From UHGV virus genome UHGV-0327679: DNA of 35,439 bases; one strand, 5' to 3'. Of the stretch, positions 2,224 to 21,610 are shown one piece after another (position 1 is the first letter of the stretch; each line of letters begins with the position of its first letter). A program made the position numbers and the translations under genes. This DNA is from a virus. Below the pieces are notes generated by a model, which ran no database searches, was not told where the DNA came from, and worked only from the letters and a program-made list of their open reading frames with translations.

Positions 2224-2291
2224 GTTGGTTTTTCTCCACGAATTTACTGACAACAGAAGCCCTGACTGTTCCCGCAGTTGGGGCTTCAACT

Positions 2292-13894: not shown

Positions 13895-16093
13895 TTACTG
13901 CTGTGGTTGTTGCTGAGTTGATTTTTGCAGGATGCTGCTGATGTCCATGCGCTGCGCATGACCCTGTGCCTGACTTTTCAGGACAAGCTCTGCATCAGCA
14001 CGGGCATTGTCTCCTTGCTGTTGCTGGAACTGTCCGAGCAGTTTCAGAGCCTCGCGGATATCAGATTTCTGCTGGCTATCGGCAGATGCGAGGATTTTCA
14101 CAACATTTGCCGCTGCAACCTGAGCATCAGTCTGTGCCTGGAATGCTTTAACCTGAATGGCTGCCTGTTCGTTCTGCGCTTTCTGCAATTCAGCCTGACC
14201 AGCAAGAAGCTGACCTTGCGCAGCAACCATAGCCGGATCTGGCTGACTGGCCTGTTGTTGTTTCGCCTGCTCAACCATCTGCTGTTCTTCTGGCGTTCTC
14301 GGCTTGATAACTCCAGACAGAAGCAACTGATTGCGGTTGTATTCTTTCAGGTCGTCCATCCCTTCTCCGTCCATATTGTCGAGAATCATCGACGATACAA
14401 GGTCGTGCTTCGGCGTCCCTGGCGGGATAAGTGCCAGCATGGAAAGTAACGACTTAACCGTTGCATCACGGCGAGTAGCGAACGACTGACCGACATCGAC
14501 AGTCACTTCGTAGTTACCCTGCGAAAGGTCGTTAAGCGCGATAACCTGCCCTGTCTGACGGTCAACCACTTCACCAGTCATCAGCGCCACGTCATCGCTG
14601 CCGTCCTCATTAACGATACGCATCGGCGTATCGCTGCCATAGACTTCACGCGCCATAGAAAGCCACACAACGCCAGCGCGACGCATAGATTTAGCCATGT
14701 TGTCCATGTAGATATAGGACTGCGTGTCCATCCGGTTAAAGATGCTATCAACGGTATCGGTGGCGACGTTGCTCGGCATGTTCTCAAGCTGCGACGCACC
14801 TGTAATTTGCTGAATAGCCGTTCCGGTGTACTGCAATAGCCCGGCAAGAGCTGGAGGCATTTGTGTCGGAGGCGTATAACTGCTGACCTGAGCCTGCGCA
14901 GTAATATCTCCGTTTTTGTTTTTCAAACTGACCATCGGCAGGAACGCCGGGCGCTTTTTGTTGCGCTCCGCCCAATGAGTGGCAAGAGGACCAGGAATCA
15001 TGTCAACATCAACTACAGGAATGCCATCACCGCCAGCCTGAGTAGCGTTATCTGCAATCATGGAAACCATCAGGTTCTCAAGACGCTGTGCATCCATCGC
15101 TTTTGCTGCGTGGCCTTCGATTCGCTCCTGATTATCAACAAATGAACGACGCCCATATACCGGGATGAGAGGAATATGTTCGCCCGGAATACGCTTCGGT
15201 TCTTCCAGCCATTCAGCGCCAGACAGAAGACCGCAATAAACTCGGCGTTTCTTCACCGTTCGCTCGCCAATCAGTTCGAATGCACCATCGGTCAGCTCGT
15301 CGACAATATCTTTGATTTGCTCTTCATCATAGATTGCCGTTTCTCCGCTGACAGGGTTACGCCATGCTGTGAGCTTCACCTTCTCTATGCGAACTTCGTA
15401 GTAGCGACCAACATAGATAGCATCAGGAGTTGACCAGTCATATTGAGTGCCAGTGTCATCACGAGAAAGGCTTGCCGCGATGGAATCAGGGTATTCAGCC
15501 TCGAACGCTTTAGGCGTCATGGAGAACATTTCCATAGCCCACATAGCATCAGAGCGGTCATATTGCTTGCTGTCCTGATCGAAGAAGACGCATGTCGCTG
15601 GGTCGTAAACAGGAAGAAGGCTGATGCGTCGCTGCTCGTTACTCGGATCCATTTCATCTTCGTAATCGGCACACATGCGGAAACAACCGAATCCGCCCGT
15701 TACAGCATCATCAAATGCGTTATCACACGCTTCGCCACCGGATGTTTCCTGATAGTCAGCGCGGAATTTGCCGTTCATCTTTTCGGCTAACGCTTCCGAT
15801 GCCTTGTCATCCTTCGGCCTGAATTTAACGCTGATGCGATTCTGTCGATACTCGCCAATGATGCGATCACATTCACGGGCAATCTTATTCAGCTCAAAGC
15901 GCGGGTAATGCTCAAACCTGCCTTCATCAAATGAGTAACCAGCGTTTGTGCTGCCTTCCCACTGTGCGCCGGACACCCGGACGAAACGTTGAGCTTCAAT
16001 AATCTGCTCACGCATATCCTGCGTTGCTGACCAGGCATTATCAAAGTTGCACAGCACCTTGCGATGCCAGTCAGTCATCTTTTTTTCTGCCAT
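13895..16093 (-). CDS. Portal protein
   Basis: 732 aa (P22 portal is about 725) with a Gln-rich C-terminal barrel segment; immediately downstream of the large terminase. Confidence 0.85.
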   Translation of the reverse strand: MAEKKMTDWHRKVLCNFDNAWSATQDMREQIIEAQRFVRVSGAQWEGSTNAGYSFDEGRFEHYPRFELNKIARECDRIIGEYRQNRISVKFRPKDDKASEALAEKMNGKFRADYQETSGGEACDNAFDDAVTGGFGCFRMCADYEDEMDPSNEQRRISLLPVYDPATCVFFDQDSKQYDRSDAMWAMEMFSMTPKAFEAEYPDSIAASLSRDDTGTQYDWSTPDAIYVGRYYEVRIEKVKLTAWRNPVSGETAIYDEEQIKDIVDELTDGAFELIGERTVKKRRVYCGLLSGAEWLEEPKRIPGEHIPLIPVYGRRSFVDNQERIEGHAAKAMDAQRLENLMVSMIADNATQAGGDGIPVVDVDMIPGPLATHWAERNKKRPAFLPMVSLKNKNGDITAQAQVSSYTPPTQMPPALAGLLQYTGTAIQQITGASQLENMPSNVATDTVDSIFNRMDTQSYIYMDNMAKSMRRAGVVWLSMAREVYGSDTPMRIVNEDGSDDVALMTGEVVDRQTGQVIALNDLSQGNYEVTVDVGQSFATRRDATVKSLLSMLALIPPGTPKHDLVSSMILDNMDGEGMDDLKEYNRNQLLLSGVIKPRTPEEQQMVEQAKQQQASQPDPAMVAAQGQLLAGQAELQKAQNEQAAIQVKAFQAQTDAQVAAANVVKILASADSQQKSDIREALKLLGQFQQQQGDNARADAELVLKSQAQGHAQRMDISSILQKSTQQQPQQ

Positions 16094-16094
16094 A

Positions 16095-17510
16095 TCAACC
16101 TACACCACAAGGAATTGAGTAACTGGAATAGTCGGGTTGCGCAGCCGACTCCGGGCAATGCATACACATCATCAACGCATCAGCCAGGTTAGGAGATGGA
16201 ATACCGAGCTTCTGCTTCATTTCGACCTTAGTCATTAGCTCCAGCTTCCCGTTATTATTGAATTTGCGCTGAATCTGCGTCAGTTCTGCAAACAGCTTCT
16301 CCAGCATCTTCTCGCCTATCGCTTCTTTGTCGAAACTCAGCATGTCGTCTGGGTCTGCATACTCACCGTAGACAACCGCCCGATATGTCAGATACAGCCT
16401 GTCAGCCAGCGCGTAATAGAATTGCGCTCGCTTATTGCGGAATACATCGCCAATAGTGCGAACATTGTCGCCCTGTACGACTTCATCAGCCCATGCTCCG
16501 GCCTGATATGGCGCATCTTCATCGAATGGCGATTCGCTGCCCTTGAACATCGTGGCGGTGATTTTCTTGCCGGAGAACGCTTCCGTTGTCTGCCTGCGTA
16601 GCCCGGCACCAACACCATCACCATCCCACAGGTAGTGGTCAGCGCCGTCTTCAATCGCCAGCGAAGTAGCCCAGTCAGCACCCTCGTTGATGTCCATCAG
16701 CAGACCTTCGGCAATGCGCTTAACTACCGAACCGTGGCGCGATGCATAACCTTTGGCATCCGGCCCTGTATCTGATGGGTCATGCGCAGAGACAACAGCG
16801 CCTTTCGCTTTCCATCCGAGTTTCTTGTGCGCATCGGTAGCAGCTTCAAGCCATTCACGTTTGATGATTGCCATATCACTTGCGCTTACTGGCTCACCAA
16901 GCCAGATGTGACGATACAGTGTCGGATTTCTGCGTTTGCACTCTTCCATCTCCAGACGGAGAACTTCAGGAAAGTGCGGGTTGTCGGTGTAGTTCACCGT
17001 CAGCAGACAAATATCATCAGGAGGGTTTACGACGAATCGCTGATAGGTATCGTCGAGGATGTTTTTCGGGTTGAAGCTCACCCATATTTCGGAAAACGGC
17101 TTGCGGATGGTTGGTATCAGGATGTCCCATGATTCCTTCGTTACCGCTTCCGCTTCTTCCACCCAGCAGATATCAATGCCTTCGAGCGATTTAATCTTCG
17201 TCGGGTTGTTTTTTATGCCGTAGAACATGAATTCAGCATTCGTTCCGAGATGACGAATCATTGAACGCTGAATTTCAAACTCAGCCGAATACCCTTCCCG
17301 CTCTATGGTGTCTTCAAGCAACCGGATTACCGAATCGCTGATACTGTTTTGCAGTTCACGAGCGCAGAGAATACGCACTGGCTGCCGACGCGCCGCTTCA
17401 ACAAGCAGCCTCGCAATTGCCCATGATTTACCGCTACCTCGACCGCCTTTGGCGACTTTGTAGCGATGCGCCTCAATGAACGGTTCAAAGATAGGATTAA
17501 TCGAGGTCAT
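16095..17510 (-). CDS. Terminase large subunit
   Basis: 471 aa; Walker A GGRGSGKS; nuclease domain; overlaps the small-subunit stop. Confidence 0.9.
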   Translation of the reverse strand: MTSINPIFEPFIEAHRYKVAKGGRGSGKSWAIARLLVEAARRQPVRILCARELQNSISDSVIRLLEDTIEREGYSAEFEIQRSMIRHLGTNAEFMFYGIKNNPTKIKSLEGIDICWVEEAEAVTKESWDILIPTIRKPFSEIWVSFNPKNILDDTYQRFVVNPPDDICLLTVNYTDNPHFPEVLRLEMEECKRRNPTLYRHIWLGEPVSASDMAIIKREWLEAATDAHKKLGWKAKGAVVSAHDPSDTGPDAKGYASRHGSVVKRIAEGLLMDINEGADWATSLAIEDGADHYLWDGDGVGAGLRRQTTEAFSGKKITATMFKGSESPFDEDAPYQAGAWADEVVQGDNVRTIGDVFRNKRAQFYYALADRLYLTYRAVVYGEYADPDDMLSFDKEAIGEKMLEKLFAELTQIQRKFNNNGKLELMTKVEMKQKLGIPSPNLADALMMCMHCPESAAQPDYSSYSIPCGVG

Positions 17511-17932
17511 TTTCCGAATAGAGTGCTCATCGGTGATGTTTCAATCTGGATTGCGCCGCCGTCCTTACCGACAAGCTCGTTAGTTACCTTGTCGCCATAC
17601 TTACGGGGATTCATTCGGGCCAGCGCCCATTTGCGGGTATCAACGCGAAGTCTTGCCTTTGCCACCTCAGCAGCATCTGGAATCGCAGTGTCAGCAATTT
17701 CGAATATCTCTTCGAAAATAGAATCAGCTCGTGCCTCAGTTGCCTTCGCGTACTTGTCTCTAAATTCTTCATGCTCTGACAGCCAGCGAAATACAGTAGC
17801 CTTTGCTGGCATGCCGGGGCGCTTGCAAACCTTAACCAGACTTTCCCCGGAGGCAAGCAGCGCACAGATATCATCAGCCACCTCCGGCAGGTAATCCGAA
17901 GGGCGACCGACATTCTTTTTCTCAGTCGCCAT
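17507..17932 (-). CDS. Terminase small subunit (Sf6 gp1-like)
   Basis: 141 aa MATEKKNVGRPSDYLPEVADDICALLASGESLVKVCKRPGMPAKATVFRWL, close to the Sf6 small terminase. Confidence 0.85.
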   Translation of the reverse strand: MATEKKNVGRPSDYLPEVADDICALLASGESLVKVCKRPGMPAKATVFRWLSEHEEFRDKYAKATEARADSIFEEIFEIADTAIPDAAEVAKARLRVDTRKWALARMNPRKYGDKVTNELVGKDGGAIQIETSPMSTLFGK

Positions 17933-18011
17933 ATTGATTATTTCCCTTCTGCTTGCTTATCCCATTCATCGCGGAATTTGGATGGGTTGTCGAAACCTTG
18001 AGTTGCCATGT

Positions 18012-18254
18012 TTATGCTCCGGTAGTGAACAGGTCTAACGCTTCCTTCGATTTACGCACCGCTTCGATAGTGCGGGTCGTGATATCTGAATTAGCGCCAC
18101 CTGACTGGAAGTGAATTTTGAATAGCTCAAGCTTCAGTTCGTCAGTACCAATGAACTGAAATGCTTCTTCTGCGGCTGCGTTCTGGTTCATGACCAGCTT
18201 GTAAATCTCTAACTGGAATTTCTGTTCTTCAGTCATGGGAATAATCTCTGCCAT
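18012..18254 (-). CDS. Hypothetical 80-aa protein upstream of terminase
   Basis: GGAG upstream of ATG 18254; conserved position in P22-like phages. Confidence 0.5.
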   Translation of the reverse strand: MAEIIPMTEEQKFQLEIYKLVMNQNAAAEEAFQFIGTDELKLELFKIHFQSGGANSDITTRTIEAVRKSKEALDLFTTGA

Positions 18255-18581
18255 TGTTGGCTCCGTTTATCCGTTAAAAGGGATATCAGTTAAGTTATCC
18301 CGTGTAGGGTATAAGCCATTGTCGAGACCACTCATTGAATGGTCTCTGCAATAACCGATGTCTTTCCATCAGTCCGCCACCACAAAGAATCTTTTTTGCC
18401 ATAAGGCAGGAGGTTCATCTTTCAGTGGCTGCCAGTGTTATTTCCCCACTTACTGGCTTGGGTTGTTTCGTGGTACTGCCGTTAACTGGTGGCCCAGAAT
18501 AAATTCCGGTTTCATTATCAAGCCCACCCGTAAATGGGCTTTGTAATGAAGAGTTGTTATGAAAATTGCTCTAAACAAGCA

Positions 18582-19070
18582 TTAATAGCCATCAGAAGTA
18601 ATCGCTACAGATTTCAATCCCTCAATGTCATCCTTGGACAGGGCGAACCATTCACCGTGCTTTCTCTTTGCGGCAAATTTGCGATGAAGCATGTTTTCAG
18701 TTTCTCTTCCACCAGGGATCAGGCACTCAAGCTTCAAGCAGTCTGGTCCAGAGTTGCCAAGCGATTTGATGCGTTGTGGAATGTTGGATGAATACCCAAT
18801 TTTGGTTAGCCCAGTTTTCTTCGATGACAAAACGTATACCTGAGGAGGTTCTTTTCTCTGGTCTTCCATTACACGTCTCATTGTTGCCATAAGTCCGCCG
18901 TGCATCAGCATTTCAACAAAGAACGCTGACCGAACACCTGACGACTTAAGCATGCCAGAAAATTCACTTGCCAATTCCATTAACTCTGCGATGTTTTCAG
19001 GAACTTTTTGGCAGTTATCTTCCTTGTATAAGGAAATCATTCTTTGAAGCTTTTCTTCTAATTGGTTCAT
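18582..19070 (-). CDS. T5orf172/GIY-YIG-like domain protein (moron)
   Basis: C-terminal pattern VYVLSSKKTGLTKIGYSSNIPQRIKSL ... ENMLHRKFAAKRKHGEWFAL fits the T5orf172 (MUG113) family; AT-rich; lies after the lysis-cassette terminator; start ambiguous (ATG 19070 or GTG 19106). Confidence 0.6.
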   Translation of the reverse strand: MNQLEEKLQRMISLYKEDNCQKVPENIAELMELASEFSGMLKSSGVRSAFFVEMLMHGGLMATMRRVMEDQRKEPPQVYVLSSKKTGLTKIGYSSNIPQRIKSLGNSGPDCLKLECLIPGGRETENMLHRKFAAKRKHGEWFALSKDDIEGLKSVAITSDGY

Positions 19071-19220
19071 AGCGTCTTTACCTTTTAGAAAGTGAGCCTG
19101 TCTCACAGAAAAGCCGCCCCGAGATGGTCGCCACCATATACGGCAGTTCTCAGGCTCAACTTTCTGAAAGGCTCGGGTGATGTAATATGCGCGTGAGATG
19201 CGCTGTGAAATTCAGATGTA

Positions 19221-19244
19221 AAAAAAGCCCCGCATCGCGAGGCT
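19221..19244 (-). terminator. Rho-independent terminator after the lysis cassette
   Basis: Minus-strand hairpin GCCTCGC-GAT-GCGGGGC followed by TTTTTTT, 30 nt downstream of the Rz stop. Confidence 0.7.
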
Positions 19245-19328
19245 CATTAAATGGACTTTGTGATTTGCAAAAAAATTATTTCAGGCACTGAGTCCTGATG
19301 TACTCCTGCAGGTAGTTAACCTGCGCGG

Positions 19329-19487
19329 TTATCCTGTCGATTCCAATTCGGAGACGGTAATAATTGAGTTCAGCATCTGCTGTAAGTCTTGGGCTTTCTC
19401 CATTGCCCATGCCGCTGGCTCCGGTCGTTGACTTTGCACAGGTGGCGGCGACTTGCAGGCGCTTACGACCAGCAGAAACAGCCACAT
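19329..19487 (-). CDS. Rz1: o-spanin Rz1 (embedded lipoprotein); start probably affected by the Rz rearrangement
   Basis: Lipobox VSAC followed by the Pro-rich KSPPPVQSQRPEPAAW and LNSIITVSE, resembling lambda Rz1; +1 frame within Rz. Confidence 0.5.
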   Translation of the reverse strand: MWLFLLVVSACKSPPPVQSQRPEPAAWAMEKAQDLQQMLNSIITVSELESTG

Positions 19488-19657
19488 CCACAATCGCTGA
19501 CATGCAGAAGCGTCAACGTGATGTAGCAGAACTTGACGCCAGATACACAAAGGAGCTTGCTGATGCTAACGCGACTATCGAAAGTCTCCGTGCTGATGTT
19601 CCAAGTTCTGCTACATCACGTTGACGCTTCTGCATGTCAGCGATTGTGGATGTGGCT
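19480..19657. repeat. Perfect 56-bp inverted repeat (19480-19535 vs 19602-19657) around a 66-bp inverted segment inside Rz
   Basis: Reverse complement of the left arm equals the right arm exactly; spacer is 66 bp (22 codons). Confidence 0.85.
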
Positions 19658-19769
19658 TTATCGCGCTGCTCTTTGTAGGCGATGGCGTTATCACGGTAAT
19701 GATTGACCGCCCACGACAGACAGACGACGATGCAGATAATCAGAGCAGATATAATCGCGGTTACTCTGC

Positions 19770-20246
19770 TCATACCTCAATCTCTCTGACCGTTCCGCCA
19801 GCTTCTTTGAATTTTGCAATCAGGCTGTCAGCCTTATGCTCGAACTGGCCATAACCAGCGCCCGGAAGTGAAGCCCAGATATTGCTGCAACGGTCGATTG
19901 CCTGACGAATATCGCCGCGGTCAATCATCGGTAAAGCGCCACGCTCTTTAATCTGTTGCAATGCCACAGCGTCCTGGCTTTTCGGAGAGAAGTCTTTCAG
20001 TCCAAGCTGCTTGCGGTAGGCATCCCACCAACGGGAAAGAAGCTGGTAACGTCCGGCTGCTGTTGATTTGAGTTTTGGGTTTAGCGTGACAAGTTTGCGA
20101 GGGTGATCGGAGTAATCAGTGAATAGCTCTCCGCCAACAATGACGTCATAACCATGATTTCTGGTTTTCTGACGTCCGTTATCAGTTCCCTCCGACCACG
20201 CCAGCATATCGAGGAACGCCTTACGTTGATTATTGATTTCCACCAT
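19770..20246 (-). CDS. R: Endolysin (lambda R-type lytic transglycosylase)
   Basis: 158 aa [49 protein letters not shown], near-identical to lambda R. Confidence 0.9.
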
Positions 20247-20553
20247 CTTCTACTCCGGCTTTTTTAGCAGCGAAGCGTTTGATAAGCGAACCAATCGAGT
20301 CAGTACCGATGTAGCCGATGAACACGCTCGTTATATAAGCGAGATCGCTACTTAGTCCGGCGAAGTCGAGAAGGTCACGAATGAACCAGGCGATAATGGC
20401 GCACATCGTTGCGTCGATTACTGTTTTTGTAAACGCACCGCCATTGTATCTGCCGCGAAGGTACGCCATTGCAAACGCAAGGATTGCCCCGATTCCTTGT
20501 TCCTTTGCCGCGAGAATGGCGGCTAACAGGTCATGTTTTTCTGGCATATTCAT
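20230..20553 (-). CDS. S: Holin (lambda S-type, dual start MxxM)
   Basis: 107 aa [45 protein letters not shown], near-identical to lambda S. Confidence 0.9.
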
Positions 20554-20986: not shown

Positions 20987-21610
20987 CTAACGTGTGACCG
21001 CATTCAATATGTTGTCTGCGATTGACTCTTCTTTGTGGCATTGCACCACCAGAGAGTCATACAGCGGCTTAACAGTGCGTGACCAGGTGGGTTGAGTAAG
21101 GTTTGGGATTAGCATCGTTACAGCGCGATATGCGGCGCTTGCTGGCATTCTTGAATAGCCGACACCTTTGCATCTTCCGCATTCTTTCTCAACAACTCTC
21201 CCCCACTGCTCTGTTTTGGCTATATCAACCGCACGGCCTGTACCGTGGCAATCTCTGCATCTTGCGCCCGGCGTCGCGGCACTACGGCAATAATCCGCAT
21301 AAGCGAATGTTGCGAGCACTTGCAGTACCTTTGCCTTAGTATTTCCTTCGAGCTTTGCCACACCACGGTATTTCCCCGATACCTTGTGTGCAAATTGCAT
21401 CAGATAGTTGATAGCCTTTTGTTTGTCGTTCTGGCTGAGTTCATGCTTACCGCAGAATGCAGCCATTCCGAATCCGGCTTGTGATTGTGCCATCCCCATA
21501 GCAGCCATCACATCAGTACCGGAAAGAGAGTCAGACGCCGTGGCCCGTGGTGAGTCACTCATCATCGGGCTTTTTGGCGAATGAAATTTAGCTACACTTT
21601 CGAGTCTCAT
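20987..21610 (-). CDS. Q: Late antiterminator Q (lambda-type)
   Basis: 207 aa MRLESVAKFHSPKSPMMSDSPRATASDSLSGTDVMAAMGMAQSQ, near-identical to lambda Q. Confidence 0.9.
   Translation of the reverse strand: MRLESVAKFHSPKSPMMSDSPRATASDSLSGTDVMAAMGMAQSQAGFGMAAFCGKHELSQNDKQKAINYLMQFAHKVSGKYRGVAKLEGNTKAKVLQVLATFAYADYCRSAATPGARCRDCHGTGRAVDIAKTEQWGRVVEKECGRCKGVGYSRMPASAAYRAVTMLIPNLTQPTWSRTVKPLYDSLVVQCHKEESIADNILNAVTR

What the first reader, a model, noticed from the sequence alone, without database searches (positions are those of the whole stretch)
18255..19244. T5orf172-domain moron after the lysis-cassette terminator
A roughly 160-aa protein carries a T5orf172/MUG113 (GIY-YIG-like) C-terminal pattern with an unrecognised helical N-terminal domain. 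It sits between a strong terminator downstream of Rz and an unusually long 327-bp non-coding stretch, in an AT-rich block, which is typical of an independently transcribed moron. This domain recurs in defence islands; whether it is defence or anti-defence here is unknown.
Basis: partly seen in the sequence, partly recalled or inferred. Interest (0 to 1): 0.6.

Follow-up and report, generated by a model that had tools for sequence, protein, structure and literature searches.

The report
Swappable nuclease gene behind structured leader
A small GIY-YIG/T5orf172 nuclease gene sits in a slot of a P22-like E. coli phage where related phages carry rha, kilA-N or antirepressor genes. All these alternatives share one terminator and one conserved, unannotated RNA-hairpin leader, while the gene itself is already annotated elsewhere and its function is untested.

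Summary
On the minus strand, 18582-19070 encodes a 162-aa protein with a three-helix N-terminal domain and a C-terminal T5orf172/MUG113 (GIY-YIG fold) domain. It follows a real terminator (19225-19245) and precedes 327 ORF-free bases.

The gene is not new. Nearly the same DNA is in HK106 gp64, and a 33%-identical allele is epsilon34 gp68. Both are annotated "GIY-YIG nuclease family protein", and both fall in PHROG 4284 (function unknown).

Only 18550-19065 is specific to this gene. The flanks are shared with phages whose slot holds Rha, KilA-N or ANT genes. The swap is exact at a conserved ATG.

The shared upstream flank is the terminator plus a ~93-nt hairpin (19080-19172). Its 3' base contains or abuts the Shine-Dalgarno sequence. 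Covariation is strong, there is no Rfam match, and it occurs unannotated in 906 of 5426 complete E. coli genomes, including upstream of phi80 rha.

I found no sigma-70-type promoter, so "independently transcribed moron" is not supported.

The 327-bp stretch is an ordinary conserved mosaic block; P22 carries the pid moron inside its copy.

Best reading: a late-operon cargo nuclease under translational gating, acting in homing or inter-phage conflict. That function is untested.

The parts
19225..19245 (-). Rho-independent terminator after Rz (stem GAGCCTCGC/GCGGGGCTT, then T7). A fixed part of the slot.
   Evidence: 9 pairs, 6 GC. Folds alone at -20.3 kcal/mol. Compensatory pairs across 67 leader variants (CG:60/GC:3/UA:2 and GC:61/AU:5). 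Annotated as a terminator in HK106 and epsilon34.
19173..19224 (-). Spacer between the terminator and the leader hairpin, with a small GC hairpin (GCGC 19200-19203 / GCGC 19189-19192). The weak -35/-10-like TTCACA-16-TATTAC here is not conserved in other leader types.
   Evidence: No promoter called on this strand.
19080..19172 (-). Conserved leader hairpin of about 93 nt, with an asymmetric internal loop on its 3' side. Its 3' base pairs CCUUU (19167-19171) with the Shine-Dalgarno AAAGG.
   Evidence: MFE -44.3 kcal/mol, z about -4. Covariance model R1 finds it immediately 5' of the cargo ATG in 60+ loci, at 32-136 bits. 30 of 31 pairs show double changes; 97% of cells are paired against 36-50% in slid controls. 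Nine diverged copies fold alone to the same shape. No Rfam hit.
19081..19084 (-). Shine-Dalgarno core AAGG, 10 nt before the ATG, inside the base helix of the hairpin.
   Evidence: Sequence and folds. In P22-type leaders the SD abuts the helix or is only partly paired.
18582..19070 (-). CDS of the 162-aa T5orf172/MUG113 protein (stop TAA at 18582-18584).
   Evidence: (PHROG 4284, 4.6e-91).
18858..19070 (-). N-terminal three-helix domain (aa 1-71). No family assignment.
18606..18842 (-). C-terminal GIY-YIG-fold nuclease domain (aa 77-155). Family-conserved Y79, K90-I91-G92, R100, E125, H129 (all invariant) and E140 (9 of 10), then W141 and F142 (invariant).
18550..19065 (-). The only DNA specific to this cargo. 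Everything outside it is shared with phages that carry other cargo genes.
   Evidence: blastn breakpoints against HK620, epsilon34, 720R6, phiv205-1, Kapi1 and HK140.
18255..18549 (-). Conserved non-coding mosaic block downstream of the slot. It includes the point where P22 carries the pid moron (18268-18296), a 35-aa remnant ORF (18295-18402) and an almost invariant core (18357-18470).
18012..18254 (-). DUF2560 gene (P22 orf80 / HK620 hkbM homologue), the next late gene.
   Evidence: Pfam DUF2560 1.1e-43. Annotations.

Best explanation
Shown: the gene is one of several interchangeable cargo genes in a fixed 'socket' of the lambdoid late operon, between the lysis cassette and the packaging genes. 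The socket is a terminator, a ~93-nt hairpin leader whose 3' base holds or abuts the ribosome-binding site, a conserved ATG, and a conserved non-coding block downstream. In this window the cargo is a 162-aa two-domain protein: a three-helix N-terminal domain plus a GIY-YIG-fold T5orf172 domain that keeps the family-conserved Tyr/Arg/Glu-type residues.

Inferred mechanism:
1. The gene has no promoter of its own. It is transcribed only when Q-modified RNA polymerase from pR' reads through the terminator during lytic growth.
2. The stable leader hairpin keeps translation low, or makes it depend on RNA processing. This would suit cargo that is harmful in excess; phi80/P22 Rha is reported to block phage growth in IHF-defective hosts (cited in PMC4936722).
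3. The protein cuts or nicks DNA. It acts as a selfish or conflict nuclease against co-resident lambdoid genomes or satellites that lack it (homing or marker exclusion). That would explain why a ~1.25-kb module travels at about 99% identity between phages with different packaging modules.
For: Identity and fold.

Socket and exact swap:
- Cargo-specific DNA is limited to 18550-19065.
- The leader and 'ATGAA' are conserved in front of unrelated genes.
- Of 98 leader-bearing loci, 71 carry Phage_pRha, 12 KilA-N, 2 ANT and 13 T5orf172 (8 this allele, 5 the epsilon34 allele).
- Identical 194-nt leaders precede different cargo.

Leader structure.

Long association of the nuclease family with the socket:
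- The 33%-identical epsilon34 allele has the same leader.
- A 49%-identical homologue, P0014, sits in a phage with a different lysis cassette. It still lies between lysis and terminase genes and has a diverged copy of the leader at 65 bits.

No promoter on the coding strand. In the BTP1 lysogen transcriptome the highly expressed prophage genes are bstA, cI, pid, gtrC and gtrA, not the slot gene rha (PMC7067206).

Spread: 18357-19480 is about 99% identical in most of 44 T5orf172 loci, while Rz beyond 19604 drops to about 80%. Carriers include P22-like phages, the Hendrixvirinae phage HK106 (an HK97 gp74-like HNH gene lies downstream) and phages with a probable lambda Nu1-type small terminase, recognised by eye and not profile-tested.

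Precedent: phage T5orf172 genes are treated as homing endonucleases that cluster near terminase genes and at recombination boundaries (PMC10448857). ICP1 Odn is an active T5orf172 nuclease whose activity depends on the conserved Glu (PMC8263062).
Against: - No nuclease activity, target site or phenotype has been tested for this family.
- The N-terminal domain is not a recognisable DNA-binding module. The CapR-type zinc fingers, DUF723 and DUF4397 domains described for phage T5orf172 homing genes did not appear in the Pfam scan or fold search.
- The other occupants of the socket are antirepressor-type DNA binders, not nucleases. The socket may therefore select for a regulatory role.
- A 114-member Salmonella cluster (P0002) has Gly in place of the Glu, so some copies may be catalytically dead.
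- The 99%-identical flanks fit ordinary homologous recombination as well as homing.
- SD pairing is clear in the window-type leaders but only partial or adjacent in P22-type leaders.
- Absence of a consensus sigma-70 match does not exclude a weak or non-sigma-70 promoter. The P22 pid promoter has a poor -10.
Confidence: 0.4

Rival explanations
1. Prophage-expressed moron. The gene is transcribed from its own promoter in the lysogen. Its nuclease protects the host against superinfecting phages, or counters a host defence.
Against: No promoter-like site lies on the coding strand. The upstream DNA is a leader shared with Rha, KilA-N and ANT cargo, and a hairpin occludes the SD. No terminator follows the gene. 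The PADLOC hit covers only the T5orf172 domain (aa 85-158 against profile positions 3-83 of 212). The slot gene is not among the highly expressed BTP1 prophage genes.
Confidence: 0.12
2. Domesticated DNA-binding regulator. The T5orf172 domain is used for binding rather than cutting, as in the satellite protein CapR. The protein would do the same job as the Rha, KilA-N or ANT proteins that occupy the socket in other phages (antirepressor-like or transcriptional interference).
For: All other cargo classes of the socket are Phage_pRha, KilA-N or ANT proteins. CapR is a T5orf172 protein acting as a repressor (PMC8096241, listed; described). One large cluster has lost the Glu.
Against: Tyr79, Arg100, Glu125 and His129 are invariant, and Glu140 is kept in 9 of 10 sequences down to 35% identity. 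The protein shows no similarity to Rha and lacks the ORF11CD3 tail shared by Rha and KilA-N cargo.
Confidence: 0.18
3. Anti-satellite or anti-competitor nuclease in the manner of ICP1 Odn. Made late, it destroys a specific sequence of a parasite (P4-like element, PICI) or of a rival prophage, rather than promoting its own spread.
For: Odn is a stand-alone T5orf172 nuclease with a borrowed N-terminal specificity domain. Here two alleles with very different N-terminal domains (33% overall identity) occupy the same socket. That fits diversifying specificity.
Against: No target can be named. The N-terminal domain matches no replication-initiator or other DNA-binding family. With these data this rival cannot be separated from the homing variant of the main explanation.
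Confidence: 0.15
4. Packaging helper nuclease, analogous to the HNH protein gp74 that HK97-type terminases need.
For: It lies next to the terminase genes. In HK106 it sits beside the gp74-like HNH gene.
Against: It is present in a small minority of otherwise similar phages and is replaced by non-nucleases. It is found with at least two, and probably three, different packaging modules.
Confidence: 0.04

Closest known systems
HK106 gp64 (YP_007151734) and epsilon34 gp68 / g341c gp64, RefSeq 'GIY-YIG nuclease family protein'; PHROG 4284
   Same: HK106 gp64 is the same gene at 96-97% nucleotide identity, with the same terminator and leader. epsilon34 gp68 is a 33%-identical allele in the same socket. 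Both fall in PHROG 4284.
   Different: Nothing material for HK106 gp64. None of these has an assigned function or any experiment that I could find.
T5orf172-family homing endonuclease genes of ICP1, T5-like and other phages (Barth, Dunham and Seed 2023, PMC10448857)
   Same: T5orf172 nuclease domain at one end of the protein; free-standing gene; near the terminase gene; sits exactly at a boundary of genetic exchange (one search compared).
   Different: Those proteins usually carry CapR-type zinc-finger, DUF723 or DUF4397 DNA-binding repeats. This one has a 70-aa three-helix domain with no match. Its alternatives at the site are regulators, not an empty site. Homing is untested.
ICP1 Odn (gp88) and PLE CapR
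   Same: Small two-domain T5orf172 proteins used in phage-satellite conflict. The catalytic Arg and Glu are conserved in Odn.
   Different: Odn's N-terminal domain is a RepA_N copy that explains its target. No such clue exists here. CapR acts as a repressor.
rha of phi80 and P22 (orf201), and kilA-N gene hkbK of HK620
   Same: Same position after Rz, and the same terminator plus hairpin leader (P22 at 53.6 bits, phi80 in NEB 5-alpha, HK620).
   Different: Unrelated proteins. Rha and KilA-N cargo share an ORF11CD3 tail that the nuclease lacks.
RBS-occluding hairpins before T4 homing endonuclease genes, and RNase III sites of T7 and the lambda N leader (named from my own knowledge, not tested here)
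   Same: A long imperfect hairpin just 5' of a ribosome-binding site inside a polycistronic phage mRNA. The asymmetric internal loop resembles T7 RNase III signals.
   Different: No late promoter inside the hairpin could be seen. No processing data exist. No sequence similarity was tested. This is a functional analogy only.
P22 pid moron (Cenens 2013, PMC3573128; Wolput 2022, PMC8835761)
   Same: An accessory gene in the same inter-module region.
   Different: pid lies on the opposite strand, with its own weak promoter, long 5' UTR and terminator. It is inserted in the downstream non-coding block (P22 locus L004 725-1357) and is absent from this window.

Membership tests
Pfam T5orf172 (PF10544) / MUG113 (PF13455) | Profile HMM score above the curated gathering threshold | tested here: met
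   MUG113 55.7 bits (cutoff 22.3); T5orf172 40.8 bits (cutoff 20). The epsilon34 allele also passes.
GIY-YIG nuclease superfamily | GIY-YIG alpha/beta fold | tested here: met
GIY-YIG nuclease superfamily | Catalytic residues (first-strand Tyr, helix Arg, metal-binding Glu) | tested here: inconclusive
   Y79, R100, E125 and H129 are invariant and E140 is kept in 9 of 10 sequences of A1. They sit in the motif order expected from the Odn/I-TevI alignment described in PMC8263062. The second motif reads KIG, not YIG. No residue-by-residue structural superposition was available, and no activity is known.
Homing endonuclease gene (free-standing) | Separate sequence-specific DNA-binding module | tested here: not met
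   The N-terminal 71 aa have no Pfam match and only generic helical-bundle fold matches.
Homing endonuclease gene (free-standing) | Sporadic presence at a fixed site between conserved sequences, with near-identical copies in diverged genomes | tested here: met
   18 of 5426 E. coli genomes. About 99% identity of the 18357-19480 module in backbones whose Rz N-terminus is about 80% identical. Different packaging modules.
Homing endonuclease gene (free-standing) | Cleavage of the gene-less allele and biased inheritance | not testable with these tools
   Needs biochemistry and phage crosses.
Moron (Juhala/Hendrix sense: autonomous transcription unit added to a phage genome) | Own promoter upstream | tested here: not met
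   No sigma-70-like site on the minus strand in 17900-19800. The weak TTCACA-16-TATTAC is not conserved in other leader types. The consensus scan cannot exclude a weak or non-sigma-70 promoter.
Moron (Juhala/Hendrix sense) | Own terminator downstream | tested here: not met
   No minus-strand terminator-like site lies between 18255 and 18581. The hairpin at 18519-18541 lacks a U-run, and its variable positions are not compensated.
Moron (Juhala/Hendrix sense) | Absent from close relatives; deviant base composition | tested here: met
   Replaced by other genes in relatives. GC 0.42-0.46 against about 0.50.
Known anti-phage defence systems (PADLOC-DB v2) | Full-length match to a system protein | tested here: not met
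   Only candidate PDC-S57, E=8e-6, covering aa 85-158 against profile positions 3-83 of 212. DefenseFinder models were not available.
Described RNA families (Rfam 15), for the leader hairpin | Covariance-model match | tested here: not met
   No hit at gathering threshold in the whole window except sar. No hit at E<=1 in 18000-19300.

The most novel reading that the evidence does not exclude
The covarying ~93-nt hairpin plus terminator is an undescribed cis-regulatory RNA. It would form a universal expression socket for harmful DNA-targeting cargo (Rha, KilA-N, ANT, T5orf172 nuclease) in lambdoid late operons. It would gate translation through processing or a trans factor; RNase III or IHF are candidates. 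That could be the missing link in the old observation that IHF controls rha. The T5orf172 protein would then be the nuclease member of a set of alternative inter-phage weapons.
Probability: 0.3. Interest if true: 0.65.

Novelty: new member of a known kind. Interest (0 to 1): 0.4.

Why it matters
The gene itself adds little. It is an already annotated, uncharacterised GIY-YIG/T5orf172 protein in a known variable region.

What is useful is the frame around it. One terminator-plus-hairpin leader, unannotated in 17% of complete E. coli genomes and present in the phi80 prophage of DH5alpha-type strains, precedes every alternative cargo gene. Exchange happens exactly at the start codon.

That gives a concrete, easily tested handle on three questions:
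- how lambdoid phages express proteins that harm their own growth;
- the unexplained IHF-rha relationship;
- whether T5orf172 genes in temperate coliphages home like those proposed for ICP1.

It also warns annotators that ORF calls running through the leader (the 174- and 224-aa forms) are too long.

Tried and rejected
- Sequence search of the PDB: no hit. NCBIfam: no model.
- The k-mer homologue search gave only 16 proteins. The exhaustive HMMER search showed the full-length family is tiny (3 hits at 1e-30), while the domain has about 38,000 hits.
- The genome-contig scan returned one short, probably mis-binned contig.
- Looked for STnc6030-type antisense RNA here. That RNA lies at the tailspike, not in this region.
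- An IHF consensus scan gave two one-mismatch sites near the leader. The window-wide count is at chance level (80 against 67 +/- 8.6), and the site is not kept in other leader types.
- Tested whether the N-terminal domain is related to the Rha or KilA-N cargo: no.
- Tested the 327-bp block for coding. The plus-strand 62-aa ORF loses frame in P22. The minus-strand 35-aa ORF shows no third-position bias after codon 16. It is a remnant of an ST64T orf118-type gene.
- The block's invariant core folds only marginally better than shuffles (z about -2).
- The hairpin at 18519-18541 is not supported by compensation.
- A sequence-only MAFFT alignment of diverged leaders recovered only the apical helices with compensatory changes. 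The lower helices were misaligned. The full-hairpin covariation therefore rests on the model-fitted alignment plus nine independent single-sequence folds.
- Henthorn and Friedman 1995 (PMC177009) could not be read.
- The 'anti-CRISPR' label in phage Louie belongs to a different gene (PHROG 872, also in Kapi1) that follows Rz without the leader.

Full report
**What is there**

The window is a mosaic P22-like coliphage or prophage. It has the sar RNA of immI at 2224-2291. Its best overall matches are phiv205-1, Kapi1, CUS-3 and HK620, at 40-65% coverage.

The late operon runs on the minus strand:
- Q: 20987-21610
- holin: 20230-20553
- endolysin: 19770-20246
- Rz: 19276-19773
- the feature under study
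- DUF2560/orf80: 18012-18254
- small terminase: 17507-17932
- large terminase: 16095-17510

After the Rz stop comes a strong terminator at 19245-19225. An ORF then ends at 18582. Bases 18255-18581 have no substantial ORF.

**The protein**

Pfam places MUG113 (7.4e-15) and T5orf172 (3.3e-10) on the C-terminal half, both well above threshold. Nothing matches the N-terminal half.

Y79, K90-I91-G92, R100, E125 and H129 are invariant, and E140 is kept in 9 of 10 sequences, down to 35% identity. Arg and Glu are the residues that matter in the characterised T5orf172 nuclease Odn (PMC8263062). One 114-member Salmonella cluster has Gly instead of Glu140.

The full-length family is small: 3 representatives at E<=1e-30, against about 38,000 domain hits. 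It equals PHROG 4284, function unknown.

**It is already in the databases**

HK106 gp64 is the same gene at 96-97% DNA identity. epsilon34 gp68 and g341c gp64 are a 33%-identical allele. RefSeq calls them 'GIY-YIG nuclease family protein'.

Only 18 of 5426 complete E. coli genomes carry this gene together with Rz.

**The slot**

Breakpoints against HK620, epsilon34, 720R6, phiv205-1, Kapi1 and HK140 show that only 18550-19065 is specific to this gene.

Upstream, 19066-19244 is shared at 86-88% with phages whose slot holds a KilA-N gene (HK620 hkbK) or an Rha gene. The alignment runs through 'ATGAA', so the true start is ATG 19070 (162 aa). The 174- and 224-aa database forms read through a shared leader.

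A scan of IMG/VR for a 15-mer of the leader gave 120 loci, which with earlier loci made 126 pattern matches; 99 of these carry the leader. Among the 98 cargo genes found behind it, Pfam-checked representatives give 71 Phage_pRha, 12 KilA-N, 2 ANT/KilAC and 13 T5orf172 (8 of this allele, 5 of the epsilon34 allele). Identical 194-nt leaders precede different cargo.

The nuclease is unrelated to Rha. It lacks the ORF11CD3 tail that Rha and KilA-N cargo share.

**The leader**

The 93 nt at 19080-19172 fold into one long imperfect hairpin (MFE -44.3 kcal/mol, z about -4). It has an asymmetric internal loop on the 3' side. Its base helix pairs CCUUU with the Shine-Dalgarno AAAGG, 10 nt before the ATG.

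A covariance model built from 38 variants finds the element immediately 5' of the cargo ATG in several diverged contexts:
- P22 rha, at 53.6 bits;
- loci of a 49%-identical T5orf172 homologue whose phage has a different lysis cassette, at 65 bits;
- many diverged Rha loci, down to 32 bits.

On the resulting 64 distinct sequences, 30 of 31 pairs show changes on both sides. 97.2% of cells are paired, against 36-50% when partners are slid. The covariation score is 0.495 against 0.04-0.09.

That alignment is fitted to the model, so I ran two checks:
- Nine diverged copies folded singly give the same architecture, with z from -3.0 to -4.5.
- A sequence-only alignment recovers compensatory changes in the apical helices but misaligns the lower ones.

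In P22-type leaders the SD abuts the helix or is only partly paired. The invariant feature is therefore the hairpin directly in front of the ribosome-binding site.

Rfam has nothing here. The leader is present, never annotated, in 906 of 5426 complete E. coli genomes. One of these is the prophage in NEB 5-alpha (by my own knowledge the phi80 element of DH5alpha-type strains; the record does not name it), where the leader lies directly upstream of a Rha-family gene.

The terminator also shows compensatory changes.

**Is it independently transcribed?**

The promoter scan finds nothing on the coding strand in 17900-19800, and no terminator after the gene. A weak TTCACA-16-TATTAC at about 19182-19209 is not kept in the other leader types.

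In the BTP1 lysogen, which has rha in the slot, the highly expressed prophage genes are bstA, cI, pid, gtrC and gtrA (PMC7067206).

I therefore infer expression only from the Q-antiterminated late transcript. A weak promoter cannot be excluded by a consensus scan.

**The 327-bp stretch**

It is a conserved mosaic block, not a peculiarity of this phage. It occurs at 90-98% identity in about 200 phage records. These include P22, HK620, epsilon34 and the siphoviruses HK106, HK140 and mEp234.

P22 has an even longer gap at this place because the pid moron is inserted in it. pid has an opposite-strand ORF, its own weak promoter, a long 5' UTR and a terminator (PMC8835761). The window lacks that insert; the junction is at 18268-18296.

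The 35-aa ORF at 18295-18402 is the truncated start of an ST64T orf118-type gene. It is not under coding constraint after codon 16.

A 114-nt core (18357-18470) is almost invariant in 75 distinct sequences. It has no Rfam match and only a marginal fold signal. I cannot explain it.

**How it most likely works**

Shown:
- an accessory GIY-YIG/T5orf172 protein with intact family motifs;
- a fixed socket with exact cargo exchange;
- a covarying hairpin in front of the ribosome-binding site;
- a ~1.25-kb module (18357 to about 19600) at about 99% identity in most of 44 carriers, whose Rz N-termini are only about 80% identical;
- carriers whose downstream modules are P22/Sf6-like, HK106-like (Hendrixvirinae, with an HK97 gp74-like HNH gene) and probably lambda Nu1-like, the last recognised by eye.

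Inferred:
- late, read-through transcription;
- translation throttled or processing-dependent because of the hairpin. By analogy only, and from my own knowledge, this resembles the RBS-occluding hairpins of T4 homing genes and RNase III sites with asymmetric loops;
- a DNA-cutting role in homing or in conflict with co-resident lambdoid genomes or satellites. This follows the precedent of phage T5orf172 genes that sit near terminase genes and at recombination boundaries (PMC10448857) and of Odn.

Against a classical homing gene:
- there is no recognisable DNA-binding module;
- the site is never seen empty among the leader-bearing loci but is filled with regulators;
- the family has a long association with the socket (alleles at 33% and 49% identity behind the same leader).

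Rivals are a lysogen-expressed defence moron, a domesticated DNA binder, an Odn-like anti-satellite nuclease and a packaging helper. They are weighed in their own section.

**Verdict**

The 'independent moron' interpretation is not supported. The gene is a new member of a known kind and is already annotated elsewhere.

Noticed in passing
window 19475-19662 (within Rz, 19276-19773, minus strand): Rz is rearranged. 19480-19600 is an inverted copy of the normal Rz segment, flanked by 61-nt inverted-repeat arms (19475-19535 / 19602-19662, 97%). This breaks Rz into 86- and 75-aa ORFs and, judged from the epsilon34 Rz1 coordinates, also removes the embedded Rz1 start. All ~44 other T5orf172 loci have the normal orientation, and none of the 18 E. 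coli genomes covers more than 91% of the query. It is therefore either unique to this sequence or an assembly artefact.
   Followed up: partly
window 18357-18470: An almost invariant 114-nt core lies inside the non-coding block: essentially no substitutions in 75 distinct homologous sequences, while the flanks vary. It covers the upstream region and the first 15 codons of a truncated orf118-type ORF. There is no Rfam hit, and fold z is only about -2 on either strand.
   Followed up: partly
L087 341-435, L010 8533-8627, L176 631-741: Some phages carry a second copy of the leader hairpin (38-60 bits with model R1) elsewhere in the fetched region. The genes behind these copies were not examined.
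   Followed up: no
L261 1801-1928 (E. coli K-12 NEB 5-alpha chromosome 1225905-1226032): The leader lies directly upstream of a Rha-family gene in a prophage of this laboratory strain, which I take to be its phi80 element (own knowledge; the record does not name it). This gives a convenient experimental system. The leader is unannotated in all 906 E. coli genomes that have it.
   Followed up: partly
protein P0002 (Salmonella cluster, 114 members): This otherwise 98%-identical variant has Gly in place of the conserved Glu (HGGWF instead of HGEWF), and Tyr for an Asp. It is possibly a catalytically dead allele.
   Followed up: no
window 19071-19106 and protein P0001: Database ORF calls of 174 aa (GTG 19106) and 224 aa extend through the shared leader and are almost certainly over-long. 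PHROG 4284's profile also includes the 174-aa form.
   Followed up: yes
window 18497-18499: There is a 62-bp indel relative to HK106 and most other T5orf172-carrying loci. The window and a few loci lack the 62 bp.
   Followed up: no
L003 2849-3346 and L005 1728-2270: KilA-N and Rha cargo proteins share the same C-terminal ORF11CD3 domain. These two cargo classes are therefore N-terminal domain swaps on a common tail.
   Followed up: partly
L152 (IMGVR_UViG_2541047825_000009): This is the closest relative of the window in this region: 100% identity over 15000-18496 and 99% over 18500-19480, but with a normal Rz.
   Followed up: no
window 2224-2291: sar RNA (RF00262, 91 bits), marking a P22-type immI region.
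   Followed up: no
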